52,488 nucleotides of DNA from a virus (lineage: Duplodnaviria; Heunggongvirae; Uroviricota; Caudoviricetes): the IMG/VR virus record IMGVR_UViG_2537561830_000002. The stretch is one strand, 5' to 3'. A program made the translations under genes and the position numbers. Under the pieces are notes generated by a model that saw nothing but the letters and a program-made list of their open reading frames with translations, was not told the DNA's origin and searched no databases. Of this stretch, positions 1,369 to 52,488 are shown one piece after another. Numbering within the stretch: the stretch's first letter is position 1; each line of letters starts with the position of its first letter.

Positions 1369-1444
1369 GCCGATATAGCTCAGTTGGTAGAGCAGCGCAT
1401 TCGTAATGCGAAGGTCGTAGGTTCGACTCCTATTATCGGCACCA
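1369..1444 (+). tRNA. thrW: tRNA-Thr (intact, 76 nt, ends CCA)
   Basis: Sequence gccgatatagctcagttggtagagcagcgcattcgtaatgcgaaggtcgtaggttcgactcctattatcggcacca read directly; cloverleaf-compatible; classic P22/SfV-type attB. Confidence 0.9.
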
Positions 1445-1445
1445 T
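1399..1445. repeat. attL core: 47-bp direct repeat (3' part of thrW)
   Basis: attcgtaatgcgaaggtcgtaggttcgactcctattatcggcaccat is repeated exactly at 40857-40903. Confidence 0.85.
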
Positions 1446-4170: not shown

Positions 4171-4995
4171 TCAGGCGGTGAAAGTACCAATAAAGGTTTC
4201 TACTTTGCTGTCTTTGAATTTTTCAACAAGCAGATTACGAAATTCGTTAGCCATTTCTTCCTGTACTGCTTCCAGCTGAATAATGCGCAGAACCAGTACA
4301 GGGCGATCACCAGTGATAATGCTGAGGCGTAATTTAAACGGACGTTCTTTCAGGCCTTCAAACGGAACGCATTTAAACTCAAATGCTACTGGCATAATGT
4401 CTTTAGTTTTCGCTTCGACAGACTCCATCAGAGAGCGTTTGCCGCTGAAGTCATTGTCTTCAAAATCAGCGGTCTGGTTTGCTTCAATCGTGATTTTACG
4501 GACCGCCGCAGCCGCTTTTGTTGCCTGAATGGCGTCACCATTAGCATCAAAGCCCACAAGGTAGTCGGCCCAGTCTTCAATCCATTCTGCCAGTGACTTC
4601 TGGGAGTTACGCTCGCCGTTAACAGACAACAGGGCAGAGAACGGTGCTGTCTTTTTCAGTTTGAGAGTGGCGGTGTTATCTGCGTGACCTGGTTCATCAA
4701 TAGTACCCAGGTTAAGCACACTGACGGCTCGCATATTATCAGCATCGATAAAGCAGCGGGTGCCTTCATCTGCAAGATCTTTAGAATAACGGGTAAAGTC
4801 ATCGATGCTGGCAGTGGAAAGCGCACCACGGAAACGGAAGCGATTTAAATTAAATTTTTCCAGATCATGAATGCGGAAATTCTCAGGCAATGCCACAGCA
4901 TCGGCACCAATCTTACTGATAATTTCATTAACACCCTGAGCAGAAATAAGGGCATGGATTTGATTAATTGCGGTTGCGTCTAAGTTCTGAGACAT
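4171..4995 (-). CDS. YfdQ-like protein (DUF2303 family, 274 aa)
   Basis: [22 protein letters not shown]...; recalled as the CPS-53 YfdQ family; GAGGA RBS. Confidence 0.75.
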
Positions 4996-40856: not shown

Positions 40857-40903
40857 ATTCGTAATGCGAAGGTCGTAGGTTCGACTCCTATTATCGGCAC
40901 CAT
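40857..40903. repeat. attR core: 47-bp direct repeat of the thrW 3' end
   Basis: Exact copy of 1399-1445. Confidence 0.85.
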
Positions 40904-41543
40904 CAACAGAAAACCCCGTAAAAGCTGCATTGTTTAGCATGTTTATCTAACGGTTTGTAACTTCTGTTCTAACGTCCGCTATCACTTACAAACGCCTATA
41001 CGTTGTTATGGGCTTTGGTAGTGTAACACGTATGGGCGAGTAGTTCCCAGGCTCAACCTCGTAACAAGTTCCTTTGAAGCTGGAAGACGTGCCACCGTCT
41101 CTAAACCTTCTACCAAAACTCTTAGCAAGATGTTCCACACCTGGCGCGGTGTCCAATGATGCTACACGTCGTGAGACGTTGCAGAGGATAAACAGGCTAA
41201 ATGATGGGAAGAGTTTTAAGTGCAATAGTGGATCAAAGCCCACCTCTTCAAAACCTAACTTGATCGGGAAAGAATCAAGCTCTAGCACGGTTTCGTCCAC
41301 CGGAGTACAACGGGTGCCTGATAAGAGAAGAACTGCTAAGACTTCATAGCTTTTGTGAAAAAGCCCTTTTTAGTGGATACGCCTACGGCGCTTATTTTTT
41401 GGTATAACCATCAAAGGCGCTTTATGGCTCCTATTGTCTTGAAAATGTATCTTTACTTGTATTGTGTTTTATGCGTAGTCTCCCTGTGTAGTATGTAACT
41501 TGTTAATTTTCATATGAATACAGAGGCAACACGATGAAAAACA

Positions 41544-41696
41544 TTGCAGCTATAAAACGTAATAACCGCAAGATTCACGCTCGTAAGTTCCTGTCTACGC
41601 CAGAGGGAAAAGCCTGGCTAGAGCGTAAACAGCGAGAGAACGAAGAAAGAAAACTCCTTAGTGAGTTGAAATGGCTTAAGGATTGAATCACCAGTA
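41544..41696 (+). CDS. small basic ORF (50 aa), hypothetical
   Basis: AGAGG RBS; Lys/Arg-rich; below the ORF-track cutoff. Confidence 0.35.
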
Positions 41697-42236
41697 GGCG
41701 CATAACACATCCAGCGATCAAAGATGTGTTTATGCGCCTGATAGTGAAATTATTAAAGTTTTTTAGTTAATGTAGCCATTGCATGAACGATGATCGCTAG
41801 TGAATCGATTTTATCTCGAGGGGTAAAATAGATGAGGTATATGATGGTAACAATTACAGCTAAAGTAATTGTGGTTCTGCAGGTTTTTAAAATGGATGAG
41901 ATAAAGCGCATAGATACCCCCTATTGATTTAACAATAGCAAAGTATCATTTATTTTTTATTGCACGCAACATGCAAATTTTCACATATAATAGTTTACTA
42001 TTCACTTTGTATGGTGTCAACAAGATGATGTGTTGTTTTGTTTGATTTGTTCAAGATAATGTTTCATTTTCTCATCTATATAACTTGTGTTTTAGATAAT
42101 TTCACTAATTGTAAAAGTTACGTATTGCTTAATAGCTACCTTTTTATCTGAAATCGGCGCAGACGTGATCAATGTTTAACGCGAAGATCAGCGGCGTCAG
42201 GTCCACGCAGCGACAATTCTCAAATATCAGGAGGCA

Positions 42237-42788
42237 TTACGCTTCCTGCTCTTTCTTAATACGTTGCACTGTCTGTGTGCTGACACTGAAATCTTTTGCT
42301 ACGCTCCGAATTGATCCACCATTCGCGAGAGCGGCAACAATTCCCGCTCGATCAATTGCTTTTCCATTACCACGTTTTGCTATACGCCCAGCTGCCTTAG
42401 CTGCGGCGATCCCTTCACGTTGACGCTCAAGCATCATTTCACGTTCCATTTGTGCCACTGCTGCAAGCACTGTGAGCATCATATTCCCTGCGGGAGAGTT
42501 CTTCCCTGTCTTAAAGTCTTCTTTATGGAAATGCACAGACACGCCGCGCTCTGTTAATTGCTCAACCGTTGCCAGTAGGTCGGCTGTATTACGGCAAAGT
42601 CGATCAATGCTGTGAACATGCAAAACATCACCTTCACGCACATAGTTCATCATTGCCTCAAACTGTGGGCGCTGGGTATTCTTGCCTGACGCTTTATCTT
42701 CAAAGACTTTATCAAGAGTTACTCCAGCTAATTGACGGTCTGTGTTTTGTTGGACAGTCGATACCCTAATGTATCCAATATTAGCCAT
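42237..42788 (-). CDS. small serine recombinase (resolvase/invertase family, 183 aa)
   Basis: MANIGYIRVSTVQQNTDRQ... catalytic Ser motif; C-terminal HTH; GAAGGAAA RBS. Confidence 0.85.
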   Translation of the reverse strand: MANIGYIRVSTVQQNTDRQLAGVTLDKVFEDKASGKNTQRPQFEAMMNYVREGDVLHVHSIDRLCRNTADLLATVEQLTERGVSVHFHKEDFKTGKNSPAGNMMLTVLAAVAQMEREMMLERQREGIAAAKAAGRIAKRGNGKAIDRAGIVAALANGGSIRSVAKDFSVSTQTVQRIKKEQEA

Positions 42789-43296
42789 TTTCATTTTCCT
42801 TCTGTGTTGATTTGTGTGTAGTGATTATTGATCGTGTTGATTAGGTGTGTAAAGGACTTTTTTCACTACGAAATTCGAAGGTTTTTAGTGTGGTGATTTA
42901 GCCTGCTTTATCACTACACGTCTTGCATGAGAATCATGTGGTTACGTTTTGGTAAAATTAGCAAGCTATTAAATAGTGTGTTTATTTTGAAAAAATAATT
43001 TTTTGTTGCATTAAAGAAAACTTGTTCGACAGATAATAGATTGATTTTTAATCAATAATTTCTGATAGTGCTCTGTAAGCCGCATTACACAAGGATTTGC
43101 GAAAGTGATGTAAAAGTGAAGAAAGCTAACATTGCACTTTTTAAGCTACTTTTCATTGAATTTTTAGTATGGAATTACATAAGGATTAATCATCAATTAA
43201 TCTTGAATTTAAGCCTGTTTTAGATGTTTAATTTTGGTAGCAAGAAACACTTTTAGAAGATCATTGCACAGATGTTATGTGATAAATGGATGTAAC

Positions 43297-43349
43297 GGTA
43301 GGTCACTGTGAGCTAGGGGGTAGGTCACTGTGAGCTAGGGGGTAGGTCA
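43297..43349. repeat. 2.4 tandem copies of a 22-bp unit (iteron-like)
   Basis: ggtaggtcactgtgagctaggg repeated head to tail. Confidence 0.7.
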
Positions 43350-43486
43350 ATTTGAACCACAATAAGACTAACGATAATACTAATAATAAAACTAACTATT
43401 AAACTATATAATATAATTCTTTTTTATCTTTATAAGAATAATTATAGGGATACCCGTTAGGGAGTCTAACGACTATCCCTTAATCT

Positions 43487-43514
43487 ATTGGCATTCGCCA
43501 GAACCTTGCACAAG
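43487..43514. repeat. left arm of an imperfect 28-bp inverted repeat
   Basis: attggcattcgccagaaccttgcacaag matches the reverse complement of 43830-43857 at 25 of 28 positions. Confidence 0.5.
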
Positions 43515-43829
43515 TTAGACTGATACTTCTCATAACACATAGTTTTTTGTTTGTTGATGTTAGTTAGTAGATCTATGTTCGCTAATGCCGCTCACAACGA
43601 ATATGTAATCTACTATGTGCAAATAGCCTACGGCTTGCGTAAGGCTAAATAGTCTTGCGCTGTGCGCAGAACGATAATTAACTAACTACCATCTAACGAT
43701 TGAAATTTACTTGTGCAATAACCTGAGCGTAAGCGAATGGTTGTTAGTGTCTATGCGCTGTGCGCTTCAATAGTTCCATTGATGAGGCTTACGCCAATCT
43801 AACGATCATCAATCATCTAAAATAAATTT

Positions 43830-43857
43830 CTTGTGCAATGTTCTGGCGAATGCAATT
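43830..43857. repeat. right arm of the imperfect 28-bp inverted repeat
   Basis: cttgtgcaatgttctggcgaatgcaatt. Confidence 0.5.
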
Positions 43858-44147
43858 AGAGTAGCGTTACCCCTTTGGGGATGCTAACGCATAACTATAG
43901 ATCAACCATCAAACAGACAAAAAAGAAAAATATGGTTTAAAGATGTTAGGTAGTAGATGAGATTCTACCCCTTAAATAAGCCTCTGGCGAGCTAAACAGC
44001 CTCTACATAAGGGAATGTATTGTTTTTATCAAAACCTCGTTAGAACGCATTTTAGAGCGTTTTAGAGAATAAGGAAGAATAGGAGTACTCGTAAGAGCAC
44101 GAATTGCTCGTAAGTGCATGAAAAAGATCGATTTTTTTCGGAAATGG

Positions 44148-44182
44148 TATTGACAAACGTCTCTTTCTGTGCAATAATAGGT
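44148..44182 (+). promoter_or_regulatory. candidate sigma-70 promoter for the small-gene operon
   Basis: TTGACA, 17-nt spacer, AATAAT; about 120 nt upstream of the first ORF. Confidence 0.4.
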
Positions 44183-44302
44183 ATTAGAGGGACAGGAATA
44201 GATTCTTATCCTCTAAATAATTAAACCAATGCACCGCACTTTGAAGCCCAAGGCTTGCAAGGTGTCTTTTTCTTTTAACCAAATAGAATAGGAGGTTAAT
44301 TA

Positions 44303-44485
44303 ATGAAATATTTCACTCCACAGGATGTAGTAGAAGCCTGGAAACGTGGTGAGATCAACCGCTTTAAAGTAAGGATGTATAGAAACACCGCTCGCCGTTG
44401 TGGTTATCCAGAGCGTGAAAAATGCTTTGACGATGCACTAAAAATTATTGATGAACTGCGTAAGGCAGAAGCAGAGAAAGAATAA
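44303..44485 (+). CDS. hypothetical small protein (60 aa)
   Basis: Strong RBS TAGGAGG; AT-rich. Confidence 0.5.
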   Translation: MKYFTPQDVVEAWKRGEINRFKVRMYRNTARRCGYPEREKCFDDALKIIDELRKAEAEKE

Positions 44486-44506
44486 TAACAGGAGAAGGAG
44501 AAAACT

Positions 44507-44674
44507 ATGAGCGAAACCAAGAAACCAATTCCACGCACTTACCTACACGTTGACCCTGAAATTTTCAAGATTTTATTTGCTGAAGCCAAGAAAAGGCAAA
44601 TTATGGTCAGTGATTTGATGTTAGAAATCATTACTGAAGCAGCAGAGAACATCAAACAAAAAAAGGGTAAGTGA
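44507..44674 (+). CDS. small ribbon-helix-helix-like DNA-binding protein (55 aa)
   Basis: Beta-strand-like PRTYLHVD followed by two amphipathic helices; RBS GGAGAAGGAG; assignment by pattern only. Confidence 0.45.
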   Translation: MSETKKPIPRTYLHVDPEIFKILFAEAKKRQIMVSDLMLEIITEAAENIKQKKGK

Positions 44675-44725
44675 TCCTCATTCACTTTAGTAGCGCATTA
44701 AGCGTGATTTATAAGGAGATTTTTA

Positions 44726-45352
44726 ATGATAAACCAGCCAACTTTTACAAAACACTATAACACGTTTGATAATATATCAAAGATTTACTCTAATGAATTT
44801 CCAGAAGGTAAGGTTTTAGATTTATTGCACATTGTTCTTTATTATAGATTTCTTAGTTATCAGGAAAATGGTCTTAATTGTTATGAAAGTCACGAAACAT
44901 TAGCTAAGATTTTTAAGTCTTCACCATCAACAATTAAACGTAAGATAAACGATCTTAAAGAGATGGGATTATTAGAAACATCCCCACATCCTGATCCGTA
45001 TATTTCATCTTTGATTTACAATGCTCTCCCTCTCACAGATGCACATATTACTCCCCCAGGAGAGTCATCACTACCTGATCCTTCTGAGAAAGAAAACGAA
45101 TCTAATGAAATATTGAATGTTTCAGAAATCATCGTTGAAGAAGAAAAACAGGAATCAGAGTTCCCTGAGCGGCCCGAAATTTTTACTTGGCTTCTTTCCC
45201 TTGATAAGAAGAAACCACCGCACGAAGAAACAGAAGATTTTGTAAAACGAGCATTAGATTCAAAGAATATCTATCTTTGTGAAAATGATTTTGACTCTTT
45301 GATAATTGATCTCAAAAGTGAGAGCACAATATATGATTCACTACCCTTTTAA
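44726..45352 (+). CDS. hypothetical protein with winged-helix-like N-terminus and acidic C-terminus (208 aa)
   Basis: AAGGAG RBS; LAKIFKSSPSTIKRKINDLKEMGLLE HTH-like segment. Confidence 0.5.
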   Translation: MINQPTFTKHYNTFDNISKIYSNEFPEGKVLDLLHIVLYYRFLSYQENGLNCYESHETLAKIFKSSPSTIKRKINDLKEMGLLETSPHPDPYISSLIYNALPLTDAHITPPGESSLPDPSEKENESNEILNVSEIIVEEEKQESEFPERPEIFTWLLSLDKKKPPHEETEDFVKRALDSKNIYLCENDFDSLIIDLKSESTIYDSLPF

Positions 45353-45661
45353 GGAGAATAAATGGCTTATAACATCACTATAGGAAACAAAACTATTGAA
45401 ATAACTGAGAGCGGATACCACATTTTAAAAGCTATTTTGGAAATAGAGTTCTCACCGCCGACAGTGGTTAGCTTTTAGGGTTTAGCTCCTATCATCATTT
45501 TTTGGGATTTAACGCTTTCAATAATTGTGTAGGTGGTGCATCGGAAGTCGATCTGATGGCTCATTTAGAATGATACATTAGCTTCTAACAAACGTTCTAA
45601 CTAATAAAATGATGGGCGTATGTATAAGCGCCCAATGAAAATATTCAAAAAAGGAAAAATA

Positions 45662-45865
45662 ATGATTGGCTATATTCAAGAAACACAATTATTTCAGATG
45701 ATCCTGTCTGATGCAAAAAACTATGCTGAGTTAATCCGACTGGCAAAAGAAACAGAAGACTACGAAGCATTAGAGCGTTATCGTGATGAAGTGCTGACGC
45801 TCAAGACACCTTTTAACATCGTATTGAATATGATTAATGATGCATTACAAGGAGAAGCCGCATAA
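45662..45865 (+). CDS. hypothetical small protein (67 aa)
   Basis: AAGGA RBS; helical. Confidence 0.45.
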   Translation: MIGYIQETQLFQMILSDAKNYAELIRLAKETEDYEALERYRDEVLTLKTPFNIVLNMINDALQGEAA

Positions 45866-46173
45866 TGGAAGAAGATATTAGCAATGCAATGGAACAACTT
45901 TTAGATCTGACTATCTCACTACAAACAAGAATAAATCAAGCCTATTCAGATTTATGCGATTACACGCTCTCTCAATGCGTTATTAGCTTAATGAAGGTGA
46001 ATGTAAGCCTTGACGATTTTATCTCTCTGGTGAGCGATTTAGAGCTAATTGAGGACGATGCCAAGATGTGCACTCAAATCATCACAGACACCGCCAGCAC
46101 GTTAAAGGCTGCAAGTGAAGAGATTCAGCAATTAGTAGATGATTTAGCAAAAAGTGCTATTTCTTCTAAGTGA
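45865..46173 (+). CDS. hypothetical acidic protein (102 aa)
   Basis: TAATG coupling to the previous ORF. Confidence 0.5.
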   Translation: MEEDISNAMEQLLDLTISLQTRINQAYSDLCDYTLSQCVISLMKVNVSLDDFISLVSDLELIEDDAKMCTQIITDTASTLKAASEEIQQLVDDLAKSAISSK

Positions 46174-47077
46174 TAATGAAAATCATTTGCATTTATAACG
46201 ATTTCATTATATAATGATATTAGGGGTAGATAAAAAGGTTTTGACTGGTGTTAATCCTTCTACTGTCATAAATCCCTGCATATGGAAGGTGATAGCCTCA
46301 AAGGTTGAGTGGCATTAACCTCTAACAAATATTACCTTCCATCTCTCAAGAAGTTTTAGAATAATCATAACTCCCTCTTTGATTGTTGATTGTTTCTACG
46401 TTGTGTTGATGAATGTTGTTAGGCATTGTGCTTAATTTTGATAAAAGCGGGTAGGTGTTATCTCCTTGCCCTTCCCGCTCTTATTTTTCATCTATGCTTA
46501 TCCTAAAGCTCCTTATTTTGTCAGAAAACATTAAAGAGCCTTACACTGATAGTTATATTTTATAACTATTTACTAACATCATTAAACTATTATTTAATGA
46601 CAGAAGTTAGTAACAGAATAATCTATTAAGTTGTTGTCAAAAACAATCATCTGCATAGCGTTAGCCGCAAGCAGAGAGAGTTTAGCTAAGAATGGTGCAA
46701 TAAACTTTGGAAATATTGATAGCAAAACGGGTTTTATAGAATGCGGATCTATAAGCTTTGGTTGTAAAAACGATTTTCTGAAACGGTAGATTACTGTTGG
46801 TGTAGTTAATCATTATTAAAAATTTAATCTGTGAGTAGATTGGAATAGTGATTCCTTAAAATCTGACTGGTGCATCCACACCATGAAAGATAGCGGTTGG
46901 CCACCGCGCCCCGAATAGATATTCCTGATTGATTCCGCATGTTTTCCTAAGAGCATGTTTTCAGGAGTATCTATTCACCCTTTAAGCATATCATCAAGTA
47001 TATTTAAAAAGTGTATTTGCTGATATGTTTAATCCTCTTATAGTTTAACTTATCAATTATGTAATTGCCCGCACGTT

Positions 47078-47127
47078 AAAGCCCCTTTGCTGGTCAGAAT
47101 TAACCTCTTACGGCATTGGGGCTTTTT
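47078..47127 (+). terminator. candidate terminator (GC stem plus T-run, long loop)
   Basis: aaagcccc...ggggcttttt. Confidence 0.35.
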
Positions 47128-47157
47128 ATTTGTCTGGCACTAACAGGAACGTTATTT

Positions 47158-47355
47158 ATGAAACAAGAAATGATTATCAGCAAAGACGGGGAAACGATGA
47201 TTGTTAGTGATGAAAACCTCATTAAGGTTGCCGCACTGTTGGGAATTACTCCCGAAAGTCTTCGTTCTACCACTGCTCAATTATTTAAATCGGCTGATGC
47301 GGTTAGTCTTGCTGATGCCCTTAAATCTAAAATTAAACAACTGAAAGGAAAATAA
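47158..47355 (+). CDS. hypothetical small protein (65 aa)
   Basis: AGGA RBS; first gene of a compact plus-strand cluster. Confidence 0.45.
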   Translation: MKQEMIISKDGETMIVSDENLIKVAALLGITPESLRSTTAQLFKSADAVSLADALKSKIKQLKGK

Positions 47356-47359
47356 TCTT

Positions 47360-47743
47360 ATGGCTAACCCATATGGAAAATTAAAAGCAGTGAATGCGGA
47401 TAACTCCCGTTCACGCTGTAAGGTAGTAGCTTACGCTGCTGATCCAGTGCTGCAAGATCGCCTCGTCAAACTGGCTTCACCTCTCACTGACGATCTTATT
47501 GTCGGGGCTTTGCTGAAAGCCGATGGCACCAAAGCAACAACCGCATCTGATATTGCTCACATAGTAGTTGAACCGGCTTATGAAGGACAGGAAAGCGTAG
47601 TGGTTGCACATCCTACTTTCGTTATTCTGGCTGAAGATGGGATTGAATTTAACAGCATGGAAAAGGCAAGTGTTATTGCAAAACTGCAATCTCTCGGCTT
47701 TGTAATTGCTAGTTATGAAGAACTTGCGATCCCTACGACTTAA
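47360..47743 (+). CDS. hypothetical phage-like protein (127 aa)
   Basis: Tight spacing with neighbours; AAAGGAAA RBS. Confidence 0.5.
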   Translation: MANPYGKLKAVNADNSRSRCKVVAYAADPVLQDRLVKLASPLTDDLIVGALLKADGTKATTASDIAHIVVEPAYEGQESVVVAHPTFVILAEDGIEFNSMEKASVIAKLQSLGFVIASYEELAIPTT

Positions 47744-47757
47744 CAAGGAAAATAATA

Positions 47758-48789
47758 ATGAATGATTTATCAACATATTTTGGCGTTAATACTGCGGTAG
47801 TAACTCCATTTGCTTATGAGAATGCACTTAATACCCTGATTACTAATCTCGATCTGTTCGATGTGCAATATCATACAGAAAACAGCATTCTTCTTACCGA
47901 CCTGATTGATCAGTTTGTGCAGGTAGCTGGGGAAACCTCACCTTACGCTCAAAGCGACTGGAACGCCTCTAAACGTCAGGAATGGTCAAACAAACTTTTC
48001 CAGATGAAACACGTCGGCAGTATTAACGCTGTTACTTCTCGTGACCTGGAACAATACAGCCGCCAATATCCAAACCGTTCTGATGCTATGCTGGTAGCGG
48101 TTAATGATTTCTCTGAGGCTCATTACCGTTCACACGCAAACCGTGTTGAAGTGGATCTGATTACCGCGCTGCTGGGCCTGAAAGTTGAATCTGAATATGC
48201 CGGACAAGGTGATCTCGACTTCCTCGACGGTCAGGCTAAAACCACGGTACCCGCTATCGACTTTGCATCGACAACTGTTAACCCGTTCCTTGCTATTCGT
48301 AAAGCGGTGCGCTTACAGAGTGAAAAGCTGGGGTCTGGTCTTGCTGCAAAGCGAACTGGTGTAATTATCTTTGCTGCTGGCGCTGCTGCTGATGGTTTGT
48401 CATCTAACCCGCTGATCAGTGACATGGTGAAATATGCAGGCGATGCGAGTGCTACGGCCCTGTTTACCCGTATGGTTGATTCTAACCCAGCCTATGACTC
48501 TTTCCAGATTGGTGGGATCACTGTTATTGATGTGTCAATGTTTCCTGAGATTGTTGCTCACATCGGAGAGAACGGTTTCGCAATTGTTCCGGTAATGGAT
48601 AAAGCGGCACAGTGTTACCAGCTTCATAGCGGCGTTGGTGTGCGTCATGCTGAGTTAGGTCAAGATGCCGTGTTGCATCACCAATATCTAATCAAGGATG
48701 AATTCCAATTCCCATCTGTGGTTACTGAGACATCTTATCTGCCAGTAAACAACATTCCGCAAGCTATCATCTTCGGATCTGCTGCGTAA
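47758..48789 (+). CDS. putative phage structural protein (major capsid or major tail-like, 343 aa)
   Basis: Size, composition and position upstream of a tape-measure-like gene; no direct family match recognised. Confidence 0.5.
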   Translation: MNDLSTYFGVNTAVVTPFAYENALNTLITNLDLFDVQYHTENSILLTDLIDQFVQVAGETSPYAQSDWNASKRQEWSNKLFQMKHVGSINAVTSRDLEQYSRQYPNRSDAMLVAVNDFSEAHYRSHANRVEVDLITALLGLKVESEYAGQGDLDFLDGQAKTTVPAIDFASTTVNPFLAIRKAVRLQSEKLGSGLAAKRTGVIIFAAGAAADGLSSNPLISDMVKYAGDASATALFTRMVDSNPAYDSFQIGGITVIDVSMFPEIVAHIGENGFAIVPVMDKAAQCYQLHSGVGVRHAELGQDAVLHHQYLIKDEFQFPSVVTETSYLPVNNIPQAIIFGSAA

Positions 48790-48940
48790 TAAAGCGTTAA
48801 TAGACGATTCCCCATCGGGGCAATAAGGGTAAAGGGATTAACTAACCTGTAGGCGCAAATACAGTAACGAATCTCTTTGCCCTTTTTGTTTTTCTACTGT
48901 CTACAAACCCAAATAAAAATATATATGTGAGAGAAAACCA

Positions 48941-49138
48941 ATGAATACAGAAAACCCACAATCCTTTATTCTTAAGGCTGTAAAAGAACTGGCAGCTATT
49001 AGCGATGACTCAATAATCAATGTCAGTGCCTTATGCAGAATGCTTTCAATTGATGCAAATAATGTGCGGCAGCGTGTGTTTCAGACTGGGTGCAGCACTT
49101 TTGAGGCAATCCAATATTATTGCTCTAAAAAACAATAA
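48941..49138 (+). CDS. hypothetical small protein (65 aa)
   Basis: GAGAG RBS. Confidence 0.4.
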   Translation: MNTENPQSFILKAVKELAAISDDSIINVSALCRMLSIDANNVRQRVFQTGCSTFEAIQYYCSKKQ

Positions 49139-49172
49139 CAAACAATAATCATAATACAGGGAAACAATTAAC

Positions 49173-51074
49173 ATGTTAGAAATTACCGCCTCACGAATTA
49201 GTAATGTTGTGACATTTACCACTGATTTCAAGAGCTTACAGAAAGCTAAGAATGAAGTGGATAAGCTACAAAAGAAGATGCAGGGGATCAAACCTGTGCA
49301 AGTGGCGGCAGCACGTCAGAAAGATTTACAGAGGCTGGGAAAAGAGATTCAGCGCCAGCATGATCAGCATGTTAAGCGGGCTGTTAAATCTGAGACACAG
49401 GCATCTAAAGCCAGCACTAAACAGAAGCTACAGGAAGCTAAAAACCTCGCTAAAGCACAGGCTAAACAAGCCTCAATTGCTGAAAAGGCAGAGATCAAGC
49501 GCCTTGCATCATATCGCCAGTTACAAGGCATCAAGAACAATTCCCGCTATGGCGAAGGGATGGATATTAAGAAATATCACGATGCTCTACGTTACATTAA
49601 GGAACAAACCCGCCTCTATGAATCCGGCGCTATATCGCAAGCGAAGATGAATGCCCTGATCCGTGACCGCATCACATTAGAAAGACGAGCCGCAGCCGCT
49701 GCTACGCGTCGTAATGCTGCCGCTGGGGGTGTATATCCAGTTACTTCTAAGAAGCTCCACAAAGAAGGTGTTAGCGGCGGTGGCGCGTTAATGATGGGCG
49801 GTGTTGGTGGCATTATCGGCGGCGCTGCCGTTGGCTTAGGAAGTATGGCTGTATCTGCTGGAATGGAAAAAGCCCGTGAACGTATGGAATTGCAGAAGAT
49901 GAGCGATCTGGTAGGCGCAGACTCCAACCAGGTGGCTGCAATGGTTAATTGGGGGAGGGCAAACGGTGTATCAAGTGCAAGCGTGGACAAGACCACTGAC
50001 AATATCAAAGACTTAAACGAACGCATTGGTCATCAAAGCCGAACTGCTGAATGGGATAGTAAGAAAAAAGAGTGGCGAGGCGGGGAAGGATCATTAAATG
50101 ATATTCAGAATGCCTTTGCATGGAACAAAGATAAGATAGCTTCCTACCAGGGGCGACCGCTGCAACTCCTGCAAGACGTGGTGAGAGAAGGTGAACGCCG
50201 AGGAATGACTAAAGAAGCCATCATATCCCTGATCGAACCATTAGCAGACGATGCCAGCCATTATCTCAAGATGTTTTCCCGTGATGGGGAAGAGTTCCGT
50301 AAAACGATGGTTGATATGGAAAACAACGGGCAGCTACTGACAGAAGCACAGAAAGAGCAATATCGCGCAGCTAACAAGACAGCTACAGCCTTTGACCGTC
50401 TGACAGATGGACTATCGAATCAGGCTATTTTGGGCTTCTTTGATGGCATAGCCAACATGCCAGCACTCAAACCGGAAGAAAGCAAAGCCTTACAGAATGC
50501 AGCTTATGGTGTTGGTGCATCGTTCGGGGATTTGGCTAAACAAGGCGCTGTATTACTGACCTCTATGACTTCTTACGGGAATCAAATCACAAGCTGGATT
50601 AATAAACATCTTAGCCGTGGTGAGAATGATAACCGACCTGAGACACAAAAGGTTATGGACGCTGTTACAGATGGGGAATGGTCGCCATCAACGATTATCA
50701 ATGAAGGTATTCGTTATGCAACTGGACTCGATACGAAAGATGTAGGGCGTATTGTGCGCGGTGAGGAAACACAGTCCGGCGTTCCAGGGTGGTGGACTGA
50801 TTTAATTAATGGCAATGCTAACAGCTACGGATCAACCCTTGTTGCACGTAAAGCAGAAGCCTATCAGCCGACTGTAAGCCTACAACGTCAATACGCAACT
50901 CCTGTTAACGTGAATGCACAGGTTACGGTGCCGAGTGATATGATCTCTGTTAACGTCATCCCTAACGGTCCCGGCTTTCAGGATTTAATCCGCACTGAGA
51001 TCAGAGCGAACAACAATCAGTTTAGTTCGAATCTGATTCTTAGCACGTTGTCAGGACAGAGTAGCGTTAACTAA
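49173..51074 (+). CDS. tape-measure-like protein (633 aa)
   Basis: Long helical Lys/Ala/Gln-rich N-terminus, Gly-rich hydrophobic block GGGALMMGGVGGIIGGAAVGLGSMAVSAG. Confidence 0.6.
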   Translation: MLEITASRISNVVTFTTDFKSLQKAKNEVDKLQKKMQGIKPVQVAAARQKDLQRLGKEIQRQHDQHVKRAVKSETQASKASTKQKLQEAKNLAKAQAKQASIAEKAEIKRLASYRQLQGIKNNSRYGEGMDIKKYHDALRYIKEQTRLYESGAISQAKMNALIRDRITLERRAAAAATRRNAAAGGVYPVTSKKLHKEGVSGGGALMMGGVGGIIGGAAVGLGSMAVSAGMEKARERMELQKMSDLVGADSNQVAAMVNWGRANGVSSASVDKTTDNIKDLNERIGHQSRTAEWDSKKKEWRGGEGSLNDIQNAFAWNKDKIASYQGRPLQLLQDVVREGERRGMTKEAIISLIEPLADDASHYLKMFSRDGEEFRKTMVDMENNGQLLTEAQKEQYRAANKTATAFDRLTDGLSNQAILGFFDGIANMPALKPEESKALQNAAYGVGASFGDLAKQGAVLLTSMTSYGNQITSWINKHLSRGENDNRPETQKVMDAVTDGEWSPSTIINEGIRYATGLDTKDVGRIVRGEETQSGVPGWWTDLINGNANSYGSTLVARKAEAYQPTVSLQRQYATPVNVNAQVTVPSDMISVNVIPNGPGFQDLIRTEIRANNNQFSSNLILSTLSGQSSVN

Positions 51075-51147
51075 GTTTAACGATAACTAATAATAAAGCG
51101 GGGGCAATATTTATTGCTTTCCGCTCATTACACAAGGATTAATATAA

Positions 51148-51439
51148 ATGGTTATCAAAGAAAGTCAGATCAACAGCACATCTAACATTAATACATCTAA
51201 CAGCAAGGTTAAATCTGATAACGGATTTGCCATTATATGTAGCAACCTGAATAACGAAAATGCATCAACGATAGCCAGTTATAAAGCTATTACTTTTGAC
51301 GCTGTTCCGGCAACTAAGGTTTCACGTTCTGCCGATGTTACATCGTATCCTGTGCAGGATGGTAATGATGTATCTGATAATGTCAGGATCAAGAATAATA
51401 AACTTATGCTTTCAGGCATTATTACAGAAACACCATTAG
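51148..51439 (+). pseudogene. tail-protein-like gene truncated by IS5 insertion
   Basis: ORF runs into the IS5 left end at 51440; only about 97 codons of native sequence. Confidence 0.5.

Positions 51440-52488
<1,049 letters not shown>

What the first reader, a model, noticed from the sequence alone, without database searches (positions are those of the whole stretch)
43487..43857. Imperfect 28-bp inverted repeats flanking about 315 bp near the serine recombinase: possible invertible switch
Seen: attggcattcgccagaaccttgcacaag (43487-43514) and cttgtgcaatgttctggcgaatgcaatt (43830-43857) are inverted copies matching at 25 of 28 positions. Copies of the core cttgtgcaat also recur in direct orientation at about 43713 and (as ctgtgcaat) about 44164, the last overlapping a good TTGACA-17-AATAAT promoter. 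A serine recombinase gene lies about 700 bp upstream. Established: serine invertases drive promoter or gene inversion between inverted sites. Inference: an invertible regulatory segment, or a set of repeated operator sites controlling the downstream small-gene operon.
Basis: partly seen in the sequence, partly recalled or inferred. Interest (0 to 1): 0.5.

Follow-up and report, generated by a model that had tools for sequence, protein, structure and literature searches.

The report
Fixed inverted repeat, not a switch
The inverted repeat is real, but about 190 related E. coli sequences all carry the segment in one orientation, so it looks like a fixed part of the repeat-rich control region next to the replication origin of a small satellite-like island, not an invertible switch.

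Summary
Observation confirmed. The arms at 43481-43514 and 43830-43863 match at 30 of 34 positions, far above chance, and the other core copies, the promoter and the recombinase distance are as described.

Invertible switch: not supported.
- 128 complete E. coli genomes carry the region in the window's orientation. None matches a synthetic inverted version.
- All 60 fetched loci with this module have the same order and orientation.
- The recombinase gene is missing from at least eight loci that keep the repeat.
- The left arm never varies. The right arm has four alleles, and the commonest is only about 70% complementary, with no compensating change.

What is there: a 1.5-kb non-coding control region of a roughly 12-kb integrative, phage-satellite-like island found in about 13% of complete E. 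coli genomes. It has 22-bp iterons that co-vary with the Rep-like gene, an AT-rich tract, hairpins and two ~100-bp direct repeats. An 8-bp box, ATT(A/G)CAC(A/G), points one way left of the origin (108 vs 2) and the other way right of it (62 vs 0). The last box overlaps the operon promoter's -10.

The right arm is the end of the second direct repeat. The left arm is a lone opposite copy. I read the arms as static recognition sites; the factor that reads them is unknown.

The parts
43481..43514 (+). Left arm of the inverted repeat. It contains a TGGC-ATTC-GCCA mini-palindrome and a degenerate box, CTTGCACAAG.
   Evidence: I1. Identical in all 34 type-1 loci examined.
43830..43863 (-). Right arm of the inverted repeat. 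It is also the end of direct-repeat unit B and carries GTGCAAT and ATGCAAT 17 bp apart.
   Evidence: Four alleles; the commonest, ATTGTGCAATACTCTGACGAGTGCAATAACCTT, is only about 70% complementary to the left arm.
43437..43480 (.). Hairpin outside the left arm (GGGATA..CGTTAG-loop-CTAACG..TATCCC). It is dispensable and unstable.
   Evidence: I5. Precisely deleted in L002-4, L009 and L026. Inner stem lost in L008 and L016. Loop flipped and stem made perfect in L013.
43864..43895 (.). Hairpin outside the right arm (GCGTTA-CCCC-TTT-GGGG-ATGC-TAACGC).
   Evidence: In the other right-end allele it is TGTGCTA-CGC-GTTA-GCG-ATGT-TAGCACA, the same shape with two double-sided pair changes.
43515..43829 (.). 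Segment between the arms. It holds a GTTAG array, the hairpin at 43565-43615 with CCGCTCACAACGAA (43588-43601) in its loop, a second hairpin region, and two ~100-bp direct repeats (about 43652-43722 and 43749-43842). Each repeat reads TGCGCTGTGCGC ... ATCTAACGAT ... AAATTTnCTTGTGCAAT.
   Evidence: Length varies from 218 to 332 nt through 82-106-bp deletions between the internal repeats. No ORF above 33 aa.
43297..43362 (+). 22-bp iterons (GGTAGGTCACTGTGAGCTAGGG, two full copies and one partial). Probable binding sites of the Rep-like protein, that is, the origin.
   Evidence: D1. Copy number is larger in L002 and L006, where four extra copies are inserted relative to the window. Three unrelated iteron types go with three Rep-like alleles.
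43363..43436 (.). AT-rich tract next to the iterons.
43084..43091 (+). Box ATTACACA. CATTACACAAGGAT recurs exactly at 51126-51139.
43263..43270 (+). Box ATTGCACA.
43712..43719 (-). Box ATTGCACA at the end of direct-repeat unit A.
43832..43839 (-). Box ATTGCACA inside the right arm.
44168..44175 (-). Box ATTGCACA overlapping the -10 of the operon promoter.
44150..44178 (+). Sigma-70-like promoter TTGACA-17-(TG)-AATAAT of the small-gene operon.
42237..42794 (-). Small serine recombinase of the resolvase/invertase group. It is a separate, dispensable module.
   Evidence: Absent from L002-4, L006, L012, L014-15 and L017, which keep the repeat.
42816..42919 (.). Four GTG(T/G)(A/G)GTGA(T/A)-type half-sites in alternating orientation, directly upstream of the recombinase gene. 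A better candidate for that enzyme's own site.
   Evidence: I4, D3, D6. Homology to recombinase-less loci starts only at about 43013.
44726..45352 (+). Rep-like HTH protein (208 aa).
   Evidence: Pfam HTH_36 and PHROG replication-initiator families.

Best explanation
The repeat is a fixed architectural element of the cis-acting control region of a roughly 12-kb integrative, phage-satellite-like island. It is not a recombination substrate.

Shown:
- The region holds an iteron origin: 22-bp repeats that co-vary with the island's Rep-like gene, followed by an AT-rich tract.
- Arrays of an 8-bp box, ATT(A/G)CAC(A/G), flank that origin. Every box left of the origin points one way and every box right of it points the other way.
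- The last box overlaps the -10 of the operon promoter.
- The right arm is the terminal ~30 bp of the second of two ~100-bp direct repeats, each of which ends in such a box.
- The left arm is a single, oppositely oriented, slightly degenerate copy of that terminal piece, placed just right of the AT-rich tract.

Inferred:
- The boxes and arms are recognition signals. They could be read by a sequence-specific DNA-binding factor, encoded by the island, a helper phage or the host. Or they could be strand-specific signals read by replication or transcription moving away from the origin.
- They couple origin activity to the operon promoter.
- The two facing arms may bracket or loop the hairpin-rich 220-330-bp segment.

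The factor is not identified.
For: No inversion:
- The natural query 43200-44150 finds 128 genomes with at least 80% cover in one place.
- The same query with 43481-43863 inverted finds none.
- All 60 type-1 loci share the same order and orientation.

Independence from the recombinase.

No selection for arm-to-arm pairing:
- The left arm is invariant.
- The right arm has four alleles with up to seven uncompensated differences.

Modular repeat structure and indels between internal repeats.

Box enrichment in the gap:
- ATT[AG]CACA: 5 copies against 0.23 expected.
- GTTAG: 15 against 2.
- TCTAACG: 4 against 0.2.

Box polarity in 26 distinct loci: 108 plus and 2 minus left of the origin, 0 plus and 62 minus right of it. 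This holds in both unalignable module types.

Iterons co-vary with the Rep allele, while the repeat module does not.

One box lies on the promoter's -10.
Against: - No binding protein is identified. None of the island proteins compared across loci co-varies with module type. The one compared protein present in every locus with full-length matches in nearly all of them (60 aa) models as a plain three-helix bundle with no informative structural match.
- The box has only 8 informative positions and no conserved flanks.
- The promoter-proximal copy can be explained by the extended -10 (TGnAATAAT) alone.
- The loci are related, so the polarity counts are not independent. Perhaps 14 independent site families point the expected way.
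- The left arm has the opposite polarity to every other box on its side, which the model does not predict.
- Near-identity of the inner segment across loci could reflect recent recombination rather than constraint.
Confidence: 0.55

Rival explanations
1. The region is transcribed into a structured non-coding RNA. The two arms form the closing stem of a roughly 380-nt domain, or the hairpins act as RNA elements, for example in immunity or antisense control as in satellite P4.
For: - Folding is well below shuffles on both strands (z -6.5 and -7.4).
- The two unalignable module types share one layout: a hairpin presenting CCGCTCACA in its loop, a second hairpin, then the GCGC-TGT-GCGC mini-hairpin. 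The stems have different sequences.
- The right-hand hairpin keeps its shape through two double-sided pair changes.
- A leftward promoter-like site, TCGCCA-17-TAGAAT, lies at 43990-43962 in a block conserved in both types.
Against: - The arm-to-arm stem is not maintained: up to seven uncompensated changes in the commonest allele.
- The few substitutions inside the type-1 hairpins break pairs rather than compensate.
- The left hairpin is deleted in several loci.
- No Rfam family matches even at E = 5.
- No terminator is found for such a transcript.
- Palindromic DNA sites show the same apparent covariation.
- The low folding energy comes mostly from the repeat itself.
Confidence: 0.15
2. The repeat is a relic of an inverted duplication or of template switching at a palindrome-rich origin region. 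It has no function of its own.
For: - Similarity extends about 95 nt outward at about 65% identity, as after an old inverted duplication.
- All seven differences between the window's right arm and the commonest allele go towards complementarity with the left arm, as templated conversion would give.
- The neighbouring hairpin shows palindrome-type mutations: precise deletion, loop flip and stem perfection.
- Only 7 of 33 loci carry the strong repeat.
Against: - The left arm is invariant in 34 loci whose flanks differ.
- Both right-end alleles keep the same layout: two GTGCAAT-type boxes 17 bp apart, then a hairpin, then an A-rich tract.
- The boxes inside the arms belong to a polar, enriched family.
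Confidence: 0.15
3. The module is the packaging or hijacking signal (pac- or cos-like) by which a helper phage's terminase recognises the island. The two module types would match different helpers.
For: - No terminase or portal was recognised among the island genes examined here, but the island does have lambda E-like capsid, tape-measure-like and Dit-like genes, so it must borrow packaging functions.
- The module is swapped as a unit between otherwise similar islands.
- Arrays of short repeats in both orientations resemble small-terminase binding regions (established knowledge for lambda cosB and SPP1 pac; not tested here).
Against: - No similarity to any of 50,697 phage records, even in sensitive mode.
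- No lambda cosN-like sequence above chance.
- The island has a second 0.94-kb non-coding gap at 46174-47115 that could equally hold such a site.
Confidence: 0.1
4. One reading: the serine recombinase inverts the 315-bp segment between the arms and switches regulation.
For: - A small serine recombinase lies 693 bp away. PHROG calls it a DNA invertase.
- A significant inverted repeat is present.
Against: - 0 of 128 genomes and 0 of 60 loci are inverted.
- The recombinase is absent from at least eight loci that keep the repeat.
- The arms are only about 70% complementary in most loci.
- The arms have no 12-bp dyad half-sites.
- The enzyme is marginally closer to Tn3 and gamma-delta resolvases (E 1e-27) than to Gin (7e-25).
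- It has its own repeat set directly upstream.
Confidence: 0.03
5. The segment is a MITE-like insertion bounded by terminal inverted repeats.
For: Terminal inverted repeats bound a non-coding segment of about 380 bp.
Against: - No target-site duplication at the boundaries.
- No second copy anywhere in the window.
- No hits outside this island family in plasmids or phages.
- No empty site among type-1 loci. The alternative module is a different sequence of similar layout, not an empty site.
Confidence: 0.02

Closest known systems
Hin/Gin/Cin/Pin invertible segments (serine invertase, hix/gix sites, Fis-bound enhancer)
   Same: A small serine recombinase lies near a pair of inverted repeats that flank a few hundred bp upstream of an operon.
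   Different: - One orientation only in about 190 sequences.
- The recombinase is dispensable for keeping the repeat.
- The arms are not dyad-symmetric 26-bp sites and diverge freely.
- The recombinase gene is neither inside nor abutting the segment.
Iteron-type origins with separate inverted-repeat sites (pSC101, F, R6K; lambda ori with iterons, an AT-rich tract and a palindrome)
   Same: - Tandem iterons matched to a Rep allele, followed by an AT-rich tract and then palindromic elements.
- A promoter close by carries a related repeat.
   Different: - The arms are 315 bp apart, not adjacent half-sites.
- The arms are unrelated in sequence to the iterons.
- The arms do not co-vary with Rep.
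E. coli oriC, with two oppositely oriented arrays of DnaA boxes in its two halves
   Same: Short boxes of opposite polarity lie on the two sides of an origin.
   Different: - The box ATT(A/G)CAC(A/G) fits TTATNCACA only partly.
- The arrays spread over about 1 kb per side with irregular 50-350-bp spacing.
- The binder is unknown.
Satellite phage P4 ori and crr (two 120-bp direct repeats carrying initiator-binding octamers), and P4 leader-RNA immunity
   Same: - A satellite-like element with a long non-coding control region.
- Two ~100-120-bp direct repeats that carry short boxes.
- An operon leader containing a terminator.
   Different: - No sequence similarity to phage records.
- No P4-type alpha primase.
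- RNA pairing between the repeated sequences is not conserved here.
Tn3/gamma-delta res sites (three dyad subsites upstream of the resolvase gene)
   Same: The recombinase resembles these resolvases. A cluster of four alternating half-sites lies directly upstream of its gene, at 42816-42919.
   Different: - That cluster, not the reported repeat, is the res-like candidate.
- Subsite spacing and function are untested.

Membership tests
Serine-invertase switch (Hin/Gin type) | Both orientations of the segment occur among cells or strains. | tested here: not met
   128 genomes match the natural orientation at 80% cover or more. None matches the synthetic inverted version. 60 of 60 fetched loci are collinear.
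Serine-invertase switch (Hin/Gin type) | The recombinase gene is linked to the invertible segment wherever the segment occurs. | tested here: not met
   The recombinase is absent from L002-4, L006, L012, L014-15 and L017, which keep both arms.
Serine-invertase switch (Hin/Gin type) | Two near-identical crossover sites, each an imperfect dyad of about 12-bp half-sites around a 2-bp core. | tested here: not met
   Each arm has only a 4+4 dyad (TGGC-ATTC-GCCA) by direct reading. In 18 of 34 loci the arms are about 70% complementary.
Serine-invertase switch (Hin/Gin type) | A recombinational enhancer with Fis sites, and recombinase binding to the arms. | not testable with these tools
   Needs footprinting or in vitro inversion.
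Iteron-type replication origin | Tandem direct repeats next to an AT-rich tract, with specificity matched to a Rep protein encoded nearby. | tested here: met
   22-bp repeats at 43297-43362 plus an AT-rich tract. Three iteron types go with three Rep-like alleles. Rep-like HTH_36 and PHROG initiator hits. Origin activity itself is not tested.
Structured non-coding RNA | Base pairs maintained by compensatory changes across homologues. | tested here: inconclusive
   - The arm-to-arm stem is not maintained.
- The right hairpin has two compensated pairs.
- The hairpin layout is shared by the two module types.
- Single substitutions in type 1 break pairs.
- Only two module types exist in 118 loci.
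Structured non-coding RNA | Membership of a curated RNA family. | tested here: not met
   Rfam 15 gives nothing in this gap at gathering score or at E up to 5, apart from one chance snoRNA hit.
MITE or IS-derived element | Terminal inverted repeats with a target-site duplication, and multiple dispersed copies. | tested here: not met
   No duplication at the boundaries. A single copy in the window. No hits outside the island family.
Phage satellite (PICI, cfPICI or P4-like) | Integrase, replication module and helper-dependent packaging, plus family marker genes (AlpA with Pri-Rep; Psu, Delta, Sid and alpha; or a full capsid module with terminase and portal). | tested here: inconclusive
   - Present: a tyrosine integrase at the far end in strain C8, a Rep-like protein, lambda E-like capsid, tape-measure-like and Dit-like genes.
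- None of the family marker genes was recognised.
- Helper dependence cannot be tested here.

The most novel reading that the evidence does not exclude
The 0.6-0.9-kb hairpin- and repeat-rich module, with its strictly origin-polar 8-bp boxes, could be a new kind of cis-acting signal in an undescribed family of E. coli phage satellites. These islands carry their own lambda D/E-like capsid genes and occur in about 13% of complete E. coli genomes.

The signal could be a helper-sensing or packaging signal, or strand-specific priming or antitermination signals read by forks or transcripts leaving the origin. The facing arms would delimit the functional unit.
Probability: 0.2. Interest if true: 0.6.

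Novelty: new member of a known kind. Interest (0 to 1): 0.3.

Why it matters
- As an invertible switch it would have been a new phase-variable regulator in a common E. coli island. The population data say it is not one.
- What remains is more modest. It is a map of the control region of a widespread, apparently undescribed satellite-like island, showing its origin, polar box arrays and promoter.
- The map gives concrete targets for asking how such islands replicate and sense helper phages.
- It is also a caution: a small serine recombinase near an inverted repeat does not make a switch.

Tried and rejected
Searches and tests that gave nothing:
- Rfam, at gathering score and at E up to 5: nothing in the gap.
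- DNA similarity to phages (near and distant) and to plasmids (distant): only the same E. coli island.
- The capsid-like protein against phage records: no match.
- The search for related loci with the Rep-like protein in species-representative genomes: no relative.
- Lambda cosN-like sequence: not above chance.
- Four literature searches for this island or a matching satellite family: nothing relevant.

Searches that gave less than hoped:
- The motif-pair scan of genomes, viral contigs and metagenomes brought 97 more loci but only the same two module types. Covariation power stayed low.
- The 60-aa first operon protein has only Escherichia homologues. Its confident three-helix model (pLDDT 88) has no informative PDB match, so it cannot be named as the box binder.

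Ideas I dropped:
- That the box variant (G or A at position 4) and the promoter-proximal box co-vary with a protein allele. L049 combines a type-2 module with a window-like promoter and first gene.
- Reading the boxes as DNA-binding protein DnaA's sites. They fit the consensus only partly.
- The TTGTGCAAT count over the whole window is not above chance. Only its local clustering and polarity are.

Full report
**Observation**

- The repeat finder extends the repeat to 34 nt: 43481-43514 against 43830-43863, 88% complementary, 315 nt apart.
- An ungapped inverted-repeat score of 22 compares with a mean of 10.7 (sd 1.1, maximum 16) in 200 dinucleotide shuffles of the gap.
- The 24-nt arm core occurs exactly twice in the 52-kb window, once on each strand, where 0 are expected.
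- The CTTGTGCAAT copy at 43710-43719, the CTGTGCAAT copy at 44166-44174, the TTGACA-17-AATAAT promoter at 44150-44178 and the recombinase ORF at 42237-42794 (minus strand) are all confirmed.
- Weaker similarity continues about 95 nt outward and includes one hairpin on each side.

**Context**

The repeat lies in a 1.5-kb gap without ORFs (42795-44302).
- On one side is a small serine recombinase. On the other is a rightward operon: a 60-aa protein, a 55-aa RHH-like protein (my reading, no family hit), a 208-aa Rep-like HTH protein, several unknowns, a 343-aa lambda E-like capsid protein, a 633-aa tape-measure-like protein and a Dit-like protein.
- In E. coli strain C8 the same roughly 12-kb unit sits between tRNA-Thr and a tyrosine integrase. 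In other strains it sits next to tRNA-Gly or tRNA-Leu.
- In this window it follows a 39-kb prophage. A 47-bp copy of the tRNA-Thr 3' end (1399-1445) recurs at 40857-40903, so the two elements are integrated in tandem.
- DNA matching 43200-44150 occurs in 695 of 5426 complete E. coli genomes.
- I found no description of this island in four literature searches. No phage or plasmid record carries it other than E. coli chromosomal-type copies.

**Test of the switch**

If the segment inverted, finished genomes would show both orientations.
- The natural sequence 43200-44150 finds 128 genomes with at least 80% cover in one collinear place.
- The same query with 43481-43863 reverse-complemented finds none. 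Its best places are the two flanks only.
- In the 60 fetched loci that carry this module, the order is always the same: left arm, inner segment, right arm, promoter.
- The recombinase gene is missing from at least eight loci that keep the arms. There it is replaced by an unrelated 183-aa ORF, a different integrase fragment or nothing.
- Homology between recombinase-bearing and recombinase-less islands begins only at about 43013. So the recombinase and the 218 bp upstream of it form a separate module.
- That 218 bp holds four GTG(T/G)(A/G)GTGA(T/A)-type half-sites in alternating orientation at 42816-42919, including a perfect 10-bp inverted pair. This is a more natural candidate for the enzyme's own site.
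- By sequence the enzyme is slightly nearer Tn3 and gamma-delta resolvases than Gin.

**Variation in the arms**

- The left arm is identical in 34 loci.
- The right arm has four alleles. The commonest (18 loci) differs from the window's at seven positions within the arm. All seven lower complementarity to the left arm, and the left arm shows no matching change.
- Only 7 of 33 loci have both copies of the 24-nt core.

Pairing between the arms, as DNA or RNA, is therefore not being maintained. What both right-end alleles keep is a layout: two GTGCAAT-type boxes 17 bp apart, then a hairpin of the same shape but different sequence (two double-sided pair changes), then an A-rich tract.

**Anatomy of the gap**

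From left to right:
- Boxes ATTACACAAGG and ATTGCACAG.
- 22-bp iterons at 43297-43362. There are two full copies and one partial here; L002 and L006 carry four more.
- An AT-rich tract.
- A dispensable hairpin.
- The left arm.
- A GTTAG array.
- A hairpin at 43565-43615 that presents CCGCTCACAACGAA in its loop.
- A second hairpin region.
- Two ~100-bp direct repeats, each reading TGCGCTGTGCGC ... ATCTAACGAT ... AAATTTnCTTGTGCAAT. The second one runs into the right arm.
- The right hairpin.
- A conserved block, CCCCTTAAATAAGCCTCTGGCGAG.
- The promoter.

Further points on the anatomy:
- Deletions of 82 to 106 bp between the internal repeats explain why the distance between the arms ranges from 218 to 332 nt.
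- Three unrelated iteron types go with three Rep-like alleles, while the repeat module is shared across them. So the iterons, not the arms, are the Rep sites.

**The second module type**

A second module (L019 and 15 of the first 50 loci) cannot be aligned with this one.
- It keeps the same hairpin layout and the same two short motifs.
- It has its own ~105-bp direct repeats.
- It has about a dozen ATTACAC(A/G) boxes, but no long inverted repeat.

The inverted repeat is therefore not a conserved design feature of the family.

**The boxes**

- ATT[AG]CACA occurs 8 times in the window. All 8 are inside the island, and 5 are in the 1.5-kb gap, where 0.23 are expected.
- GTTAG occurs 15 times against 2 expected, and TCTAACG 4 times against 0.2.
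- Across 26 distinct loci of both module types, boxes left of the AT-rich tract are 108 plus and 2 minus. Boxes right of it are 0 plus and 62 minus.
- The loci are related, so this amounts to roughly 14 independent site families. All of them still point the expected way.
- The last box overlaps the promoter's -10, where it coincides with an extended -10 (TGcAATAAT).
- The box has no conserved flanks.
- The left arm's copy (CTTGCACAAG) is the one box with the wrong polarity for its side. That is what creates the inverted repeat with the right-hand copies.

**Interpretation**

I conclude that the repeat is a static pair of oppositely oriented copies of a ~30-bp composite site, set in an origin-plus-promoter control region.

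The polarity fits three readings, and I cannot separate them with these tools:
- A directional DNA-binding factor.
- Promoter-like elements firing away from the origin.
- Signals on the lagging-strand template of forks leaving the origin.

Rivals, and why each ranks lower:
- Structured RNA. The hairpins are real and partly compensated. However, the arm stem is not maintained, there is no Rfam match, no terminator, and single changes break pairs.
- Functionless relic of an inverted duplication. The palindrome-type mutations nearby support this, but the left arm's invariance argues against it.
- Packaging signal. The island lacks a terminase, but nothing resembles any phage record.
- MITE. There is no target-site duplication and no dispersed copies.

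**Dead ends**

- The 60-aa protein, present in every locus, gave a confident three-helix model but no structural match.
- No protein allele tracks the module type.
- The metagenome scan added loci but no new module type.

**Verdict**

- The switch interpretation is not supported.
- The fallback, repeated regulatory sites, is broadly right.
- Novelty is modest: a new member of the known kind of repeat-built origin and operator regions, set in an island family that deserves study in its own right.

Noticed in passing
window 1399-1445 and 40857-40903: A 47-bp exact repeat of the tRNA-Thr 3' end brackets a roughly 39-kb prophage. The satellite-like island starts right after the second copy. So two mobile elements are integrated in tandem at one tRNA gene.
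   Followed up: partly
window 40904-52488; L001 and other loci: This is a roughly 12-kb island family.
- It carries a Rep-like gene, lambda D/E-like capsid genes, a tape-measure-like gene, a Dit-like gene and a tyrosine integrase. No terminase or portal was recognised among the genes examined.
- DNA matching 43200-44150 is present in 695 of 5426 complete E. coli genomes.
- It is highly mosaic and sits at several tRNA genes.
- No description was found in the literature searched.
   Followed up: partly
window 43297-43362; L008 2600-2760; L010 about 4580-4730: There are three unrelated iteron types: GGTAGGTCACTGTGAGCTAGGG, TAACAGAAnnCTGTTA-type and CCTAGGAAATGATTTCC-type. Each goes with a different allele of the Rep-like protein (100%, about 51-57% and about 61% identity).
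   Followed up: partly
window 42816-42919: Four GTGTAGTGAT-like half-sites in alternating orientation lie directly upstream of the recombinase gene. They are present only where that gene is present. This is a candidate res-like site.
   Followed up: partly
window 44185-44277: The operon's leader folds into a hairpin (44185-44215) and a terminator-like hairpin (44236-44265) followed by UCUUUUUCUUUU, all before the first start codon. The terminator is conserved, with a changed loop, in the type-2 locus L019. This could be an attenuator or a ~90-nt small RNA.
   Followed up: partly
L013 about 4620-4680; L002-4, L009, L026: The hairpin left of the left arm shows palindrome-type mutations. In L013 the loop is flipped and the stem is made perfect. 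In five loci the hairpin is precisely deleted.
   Followed up: partly
window 46174-47115: A second large non-coding gap (0.94 kb) lies inside the island, between the early genes and the capsid-like genes. Its content was not analysed.
   Followed up: no
window 43083-43096 and 51126-51139: The 14-nt sequence CATTACACAAGGAT occurs exactly twice, 8 kb apart. The second copy lies between the tape-measure-like and Dit-like genes. The same box family may mark other control points in the island.
   Followed up: no
window 43968-43991; L005, L006, L007, L011, L012: The block CCCCTTAAATAAGCCTCTGGCGAG is shared by both module types. In several loci it is duplicated around a ~200-bp insertion. A leftward promoter-like site, TCGCCA-17-TAGAAT, overlaps it.
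   Followed up: no
window 44088-44122: Direct repeats CTCGTAAGAGCACGAA and CTCGTAAGTGCATGAA, 19 bp apart, lie roughly 30 bp upstream of the promoter's -35. They look like another operator-type pair (D15).
   Followed up: no
L022, L025: Two contigs labelled 'MAG: Bacillota bacterium' carry this Escherichia island almost unchanged. They are probably mis-binned contigs.
   Followed up: no
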